Positions 38,200-38,498 of a DNA stretch of 64,000 nt are shown here, in pieces. The position numbers and the translations under genes are program-made. Numbering within the stretch: position 1 is the stretch's first letter; every line of letters begins with the position of its first letter. This DNA comes from Escherichia coli (GTDB lineage: Bacteria > Pseudomonadota > Gammaproteobacteria > Enterobacterales > Enterobacteriaceae): NCBI RefSeq assembly GCF_003334785.1, contig NZ_QOWV01000005.1; one strand, written 5' to 3'. The notes under the pieces were generated by a model. It had not been told where the DNA came from. It saw nothing but the letters and a program-made list of their open reading frames with translations, and did no database searches.

Positions 38200-38273
38200 T
38201 TTGCGGATTTCTTGTCGGGATAATGTCAGTGGGAGTTCTGGTAGTTGCGTCATGGCTGGTGCCAGATAAGAAG

Positions 38274-38457
38274 GGAATCTCCGAGATGCCGCCGCAGGCT
38301 GTAACCCTTGAACCCTTGGTTCAAGGTGAATGTGTCGTCGCAGTTTTAAGGCTTCTCGGACGGACCGAGCATGCTCACCAACCGCGGAGCGCCACATTCT
38401 TGTGGTATGAAATATCGGCTCAGGGGACTGGCCCGCTTGCGAACATCTCAGAGAAAT
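38274..38457 (-). ncRNA. ssrS: 6S RNA (RNA polymerase sigma70-holoenzyme regulatory RNA)
   Basis: Minus-strand sequence begins ATTTCTCTGAGATGTTCGCAAGCGGGCCAGTCCCCTGAGCCGATATTTCATACCACAAGAATGTGGCGCTCCGCGG... and ends ...GCGGCATCTCGGAGATTCCCT, recognised as E. coli 6S RNA. Confidence 0.92.
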
Positions 38458-38498
38458 TTTGTCTTCACGGTTACTCTACCACAGTAAACCGAAAAGTG

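What the first reader, a model, noticed from the sequence alone, without database searches (positions are those of the whole stretch)
38200..38460. 6S RNA (ssrS) co-oriented immediately upstream of fau (ygfA)
The 184-nt 6S RNA ends about 75 nt upstream of the 5-formyl-THF cyclo-ligase start on the same strand. This is the conserved ssrS-ygfA dicistronic arrangement, in which the sRNA 3' end is generated by processing. The six-frame track overlays the RNA with a spurious ORF (38223..38549, +).
Basis: partly seen in the sequence, partly recalled or inferred. Interest (0 to 1): 0.3.

Follow-up and report, generated by a model that had tools for sequence, protein, structure and literature searches.

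The report
E. coli 6S RNA gene upstream of fau
This is the textbook 6S RNA gene (ssrS) of Escherichia coli K-12, in its well-known position between zapA and the folate enzyme gene fau (ygfA); the finding is correct but ordinary.

Summary
Rfam's 6S model (RF00013) matches window 38274..38457 on the minus strand over its full length (139.8 bits, gathering 46.4, E 2e-28). The surrounding 1.6 kb is 100% identical to E. coli K-12 MG1655, where RefSeq annotates ssrS at these positions, flanked by zapA and fau on the same strand.

- **Spacer.** No intrinsic terminator lies between ssrS and fau. The 60 nt after the 6S 3' end are C-rich and G-poor (23 C, 8 G; top 0.25% of windows). This fits the published route: Rho-dependent termination inside ygfA followed by exonucleolytic trimming.
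- **Synteny.** In 103 assessable species loci sampled here, 91 carry a fau homologue within 400 nt downstream on the same strand.
- **Overlapping ORF.** The plus-strand ORF 38223..38549 is spurious.
- **Caveat.** "About 75 nt" depends on the 182-aa fau start of NC_000913.3. Comparative and structural alignments favour the 200-aa start at 38253, only 20 nt after 6S.
- **Beyond enterics.** Many Pseudomonas species do have a strong terminator between ssrS and fau.

Verdict: already known, low interest.

The parts
38274..38457 (-). ssrS: mature 6S RNA, 184 nt. The 5' end AUUUCUCUGAG is at 38457. The pRNA template start, U44, is at 38414.
   Evidence: RF00013 full-length hit, 139.8 bits. Annotated as ssrS at identical positions in K-12 records. 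Position 44 is U, and the templated 13-mer is AUCGGCUCAGGGG, as published (PMC9670815).
38473..38502 (-). Proximal promoter P1: ATGACA, 18-nt spacer, TAGAGT with an extended -10 TG. The -35 overlaps the zapA stop codon. The inferred start near 38466 is 9 nt upstream of the mature 5' end.
   Evidence: Promoter scan. The P1 start 9 nt upstream of the mature end follows from the 53-nt against 44-nt species in PMC9670815. The element is conserved with the same spacing in Escherichia, Citrobacter, Enterobacter and relatives.
38458..38466 (-). Short 5' leader of the P1 transcript, removed during maturation.
   Evidence: Inferred from the P1 position. 5' maturation by RNase E/G is taken from the literature (Kim and Lee 2004, as cited in PMC9670815 and PMC12152304).
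38689..38717 (-). Distal P2-like promoter inside the zapA coding sequence: TTGCAA, 17-nt spacer, TAGAGT. Its -10 ends 232 nt upstream of the mature 5' end.
   Evidence: Exact pattern located by script. The existence of P2 (sigma-70 and sigma-38 dependent) comes from PMC9670815. That P2 starts about 224 nt upstream is my own recollection of Kim and Lee 2004, which I could not read here.
38200..38273 (-). Region directly after the 6S 3' end. It has no hairpin plus T-run and is C-rich and G-poor (rut-like). It contains the upstream fau start candidate.
   Evidence: No terminator-like site. The first 60 nt hold 23 C and 8 G; C minus G = 15 is reached by 0.25% of all 60-nt windows of the 64-kb window.
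37651..38253 (-). fau (ygfA), 5-formyltetrahydrofolate cyclo-ligase, 200-aa form. The alternative annotated start is at 38199 (182 aa).
   Evidence: NCBIfam PRK10333, 447 bits; TIGR02727 aligns from residue 13. Annotations conflict. Met19 is not conserved outside Escherichia, while an upstream ATG and the RQxIRxxIRxxRRxL motif are conserved. PDB homologues align from residues 12-14.
38499..38828 (-). zapA, the upstream co-oriented gene. It harbours P2, and its stop codon overlaps the P1 -35.
   Evidence: NCBIfam PRK10972, 221.8 bits. Annotation.
38223..38549 (+). Mechanical 108-aa ORF antisense to 6S; not a gene.
   Evidence: Listed. Not annotated in either K-12 record. No NCBIfam family at E up to 1. 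Its first ~14 codons do not align outside Escherichia. The frame carries 1-4 stops in Serratia, Pantoea, Rahnella, Yersinia, Providencia, Morganella, Edwardsiella and Rosenbergiella, although 6S itself is retained.

Best explanation
Window 38274..38457 (minus strand) is ssrS, the gene for E. coli 6S RNA, in its native zapA-ssrS-fau context.

**How the RNA works (established for this exact sequence).** The RNA folds into a long, irregular hairpin with a large central bubble that mimics an open promoter. It occupies the active site of the sigma-70 RNA polymerase holoenzyme and so damps sigma-70 transcription in stationary phase. When NTPs return, polymerase copies 6S from U44 into a 13-20 nt product RNA (AUCGGCUCAGGGG...). 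This refolds 6S and releases the enzyme.

**Biogenesis.**
- Transcription starts at P1, 9 nt upstream, or at P2, inside zapA.
- The 5' end is cut by RNase E/G.
- With no intrinsic terminator after the RNA, polymerase runs into fau. There it is either stopped by Rho on a C-rich stretch, giving precursors that 3' exonucleases trim back to the closing stem, or it reads through and produces fau mRNA.

**Shown here:** identity, structure, template sequence, promoter elements, lack of a terminator, C-rich composition, and synteny.

**Taken from the literature:** polymerase binding, the nucleases involved, and Rho dependence.
For: - **Family match.** Full-length RF00013 hit, 139.8 bits.
- **Identity to K-12.** The region is 100% identical to K-12 MG1655 and present in 5426 of 5426 complete E. 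coli genomes. ssrS is annotated at the same bases.
- **Stable fold.** z = -5.6.
- **Covariation.** Among 76 gamma- and beta-proteobacterial homologues, the closing and apical stems show compensatory changes. For example, columns 104/131 are CG in 42 sequences and UA in 34; columns 12/213 are CG in 44 and UA in 23. In all, 15 of 29 predicted pairs have double changes.
- **pRNA template.** U44 and the pRNA template are present as published.
- **Promoter.** P1 lies at the published distance and is conserved in Enterobacteriaceae.
- **Spacer.** There is no terminator in it, and the segment after the 3' end is C-rich and G-poor, in the top 0.25% of windows.
- **Co-transcription.** Co-transcription with ygfA and conservation of the arrangement are reported in PMC2848244, PMC7641849 and PMC4064990.
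- **Independent test.** Of 103 assessable loci, 91 have fau within 400 nt downstream on the same strand. All 20 pattern loci tested are full-length 6S hits.
Against: Nothing in the data contradicts it. The limits are these.

- Function and nucleases cannot be tested in silico.
[quoted passage not shown] 2011; Lee et al. 2013) are not held in the library, so they are cited second-hand.
- The P2 coordinate rests partly on my memory.
- The MAFFT/RNAalifold analysis recovered only 29 pairs. One of its three helices (CCUUGAACC/GGUUCAAGG) is invariant partly because it was part of the search pattern.
Confidence: 0.97

Rival explanations
1. The plus-strand ORF 38223..38549 encodes a real 108-aa protein and the RNA hit is incidental.
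For: The ORF is open in E. coli. It stays open in about a dozen close Enterobacteriaceae genera.
Against: The frame stays open only where the DNA is held nearly constant by 6S itself. Its start region does not align beyond Escherichia. The frame has 1-4 stops in Serratia, Pantoea, Rahnella, Yersinia, Providencia, Morganella, Edwardsiella and Rosenbergiella, while 6S persists. There is no NCBIfam match, and it is not annotated in K-12 records. The opposite strand carries a 139.8-bit covariance-model hit.
Confidence: 0.01
2. ssrS is an independent transcription unit whose 3' end is set by its own intrinsic terminator, and fau is transcribed separately.
For: In 12 of 29 Pseudomonas-like loci a strong hairpin plus T-run sits between 6S and fau. 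An example is the 14-bp stem AATCCGATGCCGG...CCGGCATCGGATT followed by TTTTAT in L112 and L118. This layout therefore exists in nature.
Against: In the window no terminator-like site lies between 38274 and either fau start. None was found in 22 Enterobacterales, 10 Vibrionales or 6 Pasteurellales loci. The literature reports co-transcription and Rho-dependent termination within ygfA in E. coli.
Confidence: 0.02
3. On the spacer detail only: fau starts at ATG 38199 (182 aa), so the spacer is 74-75 nt, as the reader and NC_000913.3 have it.
For: The curated K-12 reference annotation gives 182 aa (NP_417387.3). Neither candidate start has a recognisable Shine-Dalgarno sequence, so sequence context does not decide.
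Against: - Met19 is replaced by L, V, T, H or I in all sampled Enterobacterales outside Escherichia.
- All of them have an ATG near E. coli codons 1-8, consistently about 20-30 nt after 6S.
- The conserved motif RQxIRxxIRxxRRxL straddles Met19, out to Vibrio, Pasteurellaceae and an Oxalobacteraceae MAG.
- Citrobacter and Enterobacter differ from E. coli by an in-frame two-codon indel in this segment.
- TIGR02727 position 1 aligns to residue 13.
- Four solved MTHFS structures align their residues 3-14 to E. coli residues 12-14.
- PGAP aa.
Confidence: 0.2

Closest known systems
E. coli K-12 ssrS (b2911), 6S RNA, Rfam RF00013
   Same: Identical sequence, coordinates, strand relations and neighbours: zapA upstream, fau downstream, sibC/ibsC and serA beyond, and ygfB-pepP divergent.
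   Different: Nothing. NC_000913.3 annotates 183 nt, while Rfam and PGAP give 184 nt, a one-base difference at an end.
ssrS-ygfA (fau) dual-function transcription unit of gamma-proteobacteria
   Same: Co-oriented, tightly spaced, with no intrinsic terminator in enterics. It is conserved in Enterobacterales (22 of 22), Vibrionales (10 of 10), Pasteurellales (6 of 6) and Pseudomonas-like loci (29 of 29) sampled here, as described in PMC2848244, PMC4064990 and PMC7641849.
   Different: None for this window. Across taxa the arrangement varies. fau is absent or 0.8-2.5 kb away in Pseudoalteromonas, Idiomarinaceae, Psychromonas and some Moraxellaceae. A strong terminator is inserted in many Pseudomonas.
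Bacillus subtilis 6S-1 and 6S-2 RNAs
   Same: The same open-promoter mimicry and pRNA-driven release (PMC3299989, PMC10578484).
   Different: Different genomic context and maturation: RNase J1 rather than RNase E/G, and no fau linkage.

Membership tests
6S / SsrS RNA (Rfam RF00013) | Covariance-model score at or above the curated gathering threshold over the whole model | tested here: met
   139.8 bits against 46.4, model positions 1-187 of 187, E 2.2e-28.
6S / SsrS RNA (Rfam RF00013) | Extended hairpin with a closing stem, a large central bubble and a terminal stem, supported by covariation | tested here: met
   The Rfam structure line is satisfied, with two non-canonical pairs. The MFE structure is a long interrupted hairpin, z = -5.6. 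The closing and apical stems show compensatory changes in 76 homologues. The middle helices were not recovered by the MAFFT-based consensus.
6S / SsrS RNA (Rfam RF00013) | Template for product RNA starting at a conserved U in the 5' strand of the bubble (U44 in E. coli) | tested here: met
   Position 44 is U, and the encoded 13-mer is AUCGGCUCAGGGG, identical to the published pRNA (PMC9670815). Positions 33-44 were invariant across the 76 sequences. This is partly forced by the search pattern, which covers positions 33-43.
6S / SsrS RNA (Rfam RF00013) | Binds the sigma-70 RNA polymerase holoenzyme and accumulates in stationary phase | not testable with these tools
   Established experimentally for this exact sequence (PMC3299989, PMC2848244, PMC9670815).
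ssrS-fau (ygfA) co-transcribed unit | fau homologue immediately downstream on the same strand | tested here: met
   fau lies at 37651..38253 (or starts at 38199) on the minus strand. NCBIfam equivalog PRK10333 scores 447 bits against a cutoff of 343. The same layout is found in 91 of 103 assessable loci.
ssrS-fau (ygfA) co-transcribed unit | No Rho-independent terminator between the RNA and fau | tested here: met
   The tool scan finds none in the spacer. My own stricter scan of 38290..38150 finds none either.
ssrS-fau (ygfA) co-transcribed unit | 3' end formed by Rho-dependent termination within fau, then exonucleolytic trimming | tested here: inconclusive
   Only the composition could be tested: 23 C and 8 G in the first 60 nt after the 3' end, top 0.25% of windows. 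This is consistent with a rut site. The mechanism itself comes from Chae et al. 2011 as cited.
5-formyltetrahydrofolate cyclo-ligase (MTHFS; TIGR02727 / PRK10333) | Whole-protein score above the curated equivalog cutoffs | tested here: met
   PRK10333: 447.1 bits against 343. TIGR02727: 180.6 bits against 84.9. Solved homologues 2jcb, 1ydm, 1sou and 3hxt match at E 6e-23 to 2e-16.

The most novel reading that the evidence does not exclude
The K-12 reference annotation of fau (182 aa, start 38199) is truncated. Translation really begins at 38253, only 20 nt after the mature 6S 3' end and without a Shine-Dalgarno sequence.

If so, the fau initiation region lies inside the stretch that must be removed to mature 6S and inside the C-rich Rho-loading zone. 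Ribosome loading at this start would then compete directly with Rho, and so set the 6S-to-fau output ratio of each transcript.
Probability: 0.5. Interest if true: 0.2.

Novelty: already known. Interest (0 to 1): 0.05.

Why it matters
It matters little as a discovery. ssrS was sequenced in 1971 (PMC12152304), and its linkage to ygfA, its two promoters, its processing and its Rho-dependent termination are all published.

The check is still useful as a positive control. It shows that the first-stage reader can place a structured RNA to the exact base and recognise a spurious overlapping ORF.

Two by-products may interest annotators:

- The comparative case that the reference 182-aa fau start is too short.
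- The observation that many Pseudomonas species carry an intrinsic terminator between ssrS and fau, whereas enterics, Vibrionales and Pasteurellales do not.

Tried and rejected
1. **Primary biogenesis papers.** I tried to read Chae 2011 (PMC3012964), Kim and Lee 2004 (PMC534622), Lee 2013 (PMC3887979) and the Wassarman 2018 review (PMC6013841). None is held. Their conclusions are cited through papers that quote them, and the P2 coordinate is marked as my recollection.
2. **ATP-binding residues of MTHFS.** A literature search to confirm that the N-terminal Lys/Arg residues of MTHFS bind ATP returned nothing usable; 'Arg14' only matched Arg145. That would have strengthened the 200-aa start. The argument is left out of the evidence.
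3. **Plus-strand ORF as a gene.** Rejected.
4. **The 248-aa minus-strand ORF 37651..38397.** Its first 48 codons run through 6S and merely reflect the first ATG after a stop. The conserved protein begins at 38253 or later.
5. **The single terminator-like hit in the region, 37824..37809 (minus).** It lies inside the fau coding sequence. One hit against 1.6 expected in shuffles is within chance.
6. **MAFFT plus RNAalifold.** This recovered only 29 pairs. I did not build a dedicated covariance model, because the Rfam model already settles identity.

Full report
**1. Observation**

Rfam release 15 was scanned over the whole 64-kb window at gathering thresholds and gave four hits. The best is RF00013 (6S/SsrS) at 38274..38457 on the minus strand. 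It scores 139.8 bits against a gathering score of 46.4, with E 2.2e-28, covers model positions 1-187 of 187 and is not truncated.

The 184-nt RNA begins AUUUCUCUGAGAUG and ends GGAGAUUCC. It folds to -80.5 kcal/mol into one long interrupted hairpin. This is 5.6 standard deviations below 200 dinucleotide-preserving shuffles, none of which folds as well.

**2. Source and annotation**

Window 37400-39000 is 100% identical to E. coli K-12 MG1655 and to many other strains. It is found at 95% identity or better in 5426 of 5426 complete E. coli genomes.

In NZ_CP032667.1 the PGAP annotation places ssrS at exactly the window's 38274..38457. On the same strand, zapA lies upstream (window 38499..38828) and fau downstream (37651..38253). 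Beyond them are ibsC and serA, and ygfB-pepP is divergent. NC_000913.3 gives the same order and adds sibC.

NCBIfam confirms the proteins:

| Gene | Model | Bits | Cutoff |
|---|---|---|---|
| fau | PRK10333 | 447 | 343 |
| zapA | PRK10972 | 222 | 96 |
| ygfB | PRK01736 | 328 | 164 |
| serA | PRK11790 | 705 | 404 |

**3. Anatomy read from the sequence**

- **pRNA template.** Position 44 of the RNA is U. Copying positions 44 down to 32 gives AUCGGCUCAGGGG. This is the published 13-nt product RNA, and U36 falls at its position 9, as described in PMC9670815.
- **Promoter P1.** The promoter scan finds ATGACA, an 18-nt spacer and TAGAGT preceded by TG, at 38502..38473 on the minus strand. A start about 7 nt downstream of the -10 is 9 nt upstream of the mature 5' end. 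This agrees with the 53-nt (P1) against 44-nt (mature) species reported in PMC9670815. The -35 overlaps the zapA stop codon. This promoter, with identical spacing to ATTTCTCT, is conserved in Escherichia albertii, Citrobacter, Enterobacter, Pseudescherichia, Pluralibacter, Siccibacter and relatives. It is not conserved in Serratia, Yersinia or Photorhabdus.
- **Promoter P2.** A second element, TTGCAA-17-TAGAGT, lies at 38717..38689 inside zapA. This is where I recall the distal P2 start at about -224 (Kim and Lee 2004, which I could not read). That a P2 dependent on sigma-70 and sigma-38 exists is stated in PMC9670815.

**4. The spacer and the 3' end**

Neither the tool's scan nor a stricter script finds a hairpin plus T-run between the 6S 3' end and fau. 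The scan's only terminator-like site, 37824..37809, lies deep in the fau coding sequence and is within chance (1 found, 1.6 expected).

The 60 nt after the 3' end contain 23 C and 8 G. A C-minus-G of 15 is reached by only 0.25% of all 60-nt windows on both strands of the 64-kb window. This is the composition expected of a Rho loading site.

[quoted passage not shown] 2011).

**5. Independent test of the conserved arrangement**

One scan of the species-representative genome collection used the pattern CCCTGAGCCGA-N(85-115)-GGTTCAAGG. All 20 loci tested with Rfam are full-length 6S hits of 79-140 bits. Their ends fall within 2 nt of my estimate of pattern plus or minus 32 nt.

tblastn with the E. 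coli Fau and ZapA proteins gave the following for the 103 loci that have at least 700 nt downstream:

| Outcome | Loci | Taxa |
|---|---|---|
| fau on the same strand within 400 nt | 91 | see next table |
| fau 0.8-2.5 kb downstream | 5 | Idiomarinaceae, a Psychromonas MAG, a gamma-proteobacterial MAG |
| no fau detected | 7 | four Pseudoalteromonas, one Idiomarina, Acinetobacter baylyi, one Moraxellaceae MAG |

By group:

| Group | fau adjacent | Strong terminator (7-bp or longer stem plus T-run) in the spacer |
|---|---|---|
| Enterobacterales | 22 of 22 | 0 |
| Vibrionales | 10 of 10 | 0 |
| Pasteurellales | 6 of 6 | 0 |
| Pseudomonas-like | 29 of 29 | 12 of 29 |

This agrees with published statements that the linkage is highly conserved (PMC2848244, PMC4064990, PMC7641849). 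The terminator-free layout is therefore clade-specific.

The sample is biased towards 6S genes that keep both motifs, so it says nothing about more divergent lineages.

**6. Covariation**

A MAFFT alignment of the window's 6S with 75 non-redundant homologues, folded by RNAalifold, recovered 29 pairs in three helices. Fifteen of these pairs have double compensatory changes:

- In the closing stem, columns 12/213 are CG in 44 sequences and UA in 23. Columns 18/207 are GC 31, AU 20, UA 6 and CG 3.
- In the apical stem, columns 103/132 are CG 45 and UA 28. Columns 104/131 are CG 42 and UA 34.

The third helix (CCUUGAACC/GGUUCAAGG) is invariant, partly because one arm was in the search pattern, so it is uninformative. 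The central helices were not recovered by this alignment. The Rfam model covers them.

**7. The overlapping ORFs**

The plus-strand ORF 38223..38549 (108 aa) is real as a string but not as a gene.

- It is unannotated and has no NCBIfam match at E up to 1.
- Its first ~14 codons do not align outside Escherichia.
- It carries 1-4 stops in Serratia, Pantoea, Rahnella, Acerihabitans, Rosenbergiella, Yersinia, Photorhabdus, Morganella, Providencia and Edwardsiella, where 6S is intact.
- It stays open in the closest genera only because 6S holds the DNA constant.

The 248-aa minus-strand ORF (37651..38397) is likewise an artefact of taking the first ATG after a stop. Its first 48 codons run through 6S.

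**8.

"About 75 nt" is the distance to ATG 38199, the start of the 182-aa product in NC_000913.3 (ssrS ends at 3056165 and fau starts at 3056241). PGAP instead starts fau at 38253 (200 aa), which is 20 nt after 6S.

The evidence gathered here favours the longer form:

- TIGR02727 position 1 aligns to residue 13 of the 200-aa form.
- Met19 is replaced by L, V, T, H or I in all sampled Enterobacterales outside Escherichia.
- An ATG near codons 1-8 is always present, some 3-30 nt after 6S in Enterobacteriaceae.
- The motif RQxIRxxIRxxRRxL spans Met19 out to Vibrio, Pasteurellaceae and an Oxalobacteraceae MAG.
- Citrobacter and Enterobacter differ from E. coli in this segment by an in-frame two-codon indel.
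- Four solved MTHFS structures (2jcb, 1ydm, 1sou, human 3hxt) align their residues 3-14 to E. coli residues 12-14.

Neither start has a recognisable Shine-Dalgarno sequence, and the reference curators may have had experimental grounds that I cannot see. I put the 200-aa start at about 0.8.

**9. Mechanism**

The mechanism is that of canonical 6S RNA:

- The RNA mimics an open promoter and sequesters the sigma-70 holoenzyme in stationary phase.
- It is released by pRNA synthesis from U44 on outgrowth (PMC3299989, PMC9670815, PMC10578484).
- It is made from P1 and P2 transcripts by RNase E/G at the 5' end, and by Rho termination plus exonucleolytic trimming at the 3' end.
- fau is expressed from read-through.

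What is shown here: the RNA's identity and structure, the template, the promoter elements, the terminator-free C-rich spacer, and the synteny. What is inferred from the literature: binding, the nucleases and Rho dependence.

**10. Verdict**

This is the already known E. coli ssrS locus, and its interest is low. The by-products are the fau start-codon discrepancy and the Pseudomonas terminator variant.

Noticed in passing
window 37475..37625 (-) and 37491..37550 (+): SibC antitoxin sRNA (RF00113, 133.8 bits, full length) lies antisense to the 19-codon ibsC toxin ORF (MMRLVIILIVLLLISFSAY), directly downstream of fau. This is a known type I toxin-antitoxin pair of K-12.
   Followed up: partly
window 38199 vs 38253 (-): K-12 records disagree on the fau start: 182 aa in NC_000913.3 and 200 aa in the PGAP annotation. 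Comparative and PDB alignments favour the 200-aa form, which puts the start codon 20 nt after 6S.
   Followed up: yes
L112, L118, L069, L010, L012, L041, L088, L096 and others (between 6S and fau): Many Pseudomonas species carry a strong GC-rich hairpin (11-14 bp) followed by a T-run immediately after 6S, upstream of fau. No such terminator was found in Enterobacterales, Vibrionales or Pasteurellales. 6S 3'-end formation therefore probably differs between clades.
   Followed up: partly
L006, L014, L097, L104 (Pseudoalteromonas); L086, L087 (Acinetobacter and a Moraxellaceae MAG); L007, L042, L064, L075 (Idiomarinaceae): Here 6S is present but fau is absent from the downstream flank or displaced by 1.6-2.5 kb. 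The ssrS-fau linkage is therefore not universal in gamma-proteobacteria. I did not identify the intervening genes.
   Followed up: no
window 51968..52045 (-) and 24361..24403 (-): Rfam hits to naRNA4 (REP-derived, nucleoid-associated RNA; 75 bits) and ES036 (47.3 bits). They are unrelated to the finding.
   Followed up: no
L018 2534..2559 (-): An L25 ribosomal-protein leader (RF03131, 39.5 bits) lies in the Zophobihabitans locus near its 6S gene. This is incidental.
   Followed up: no
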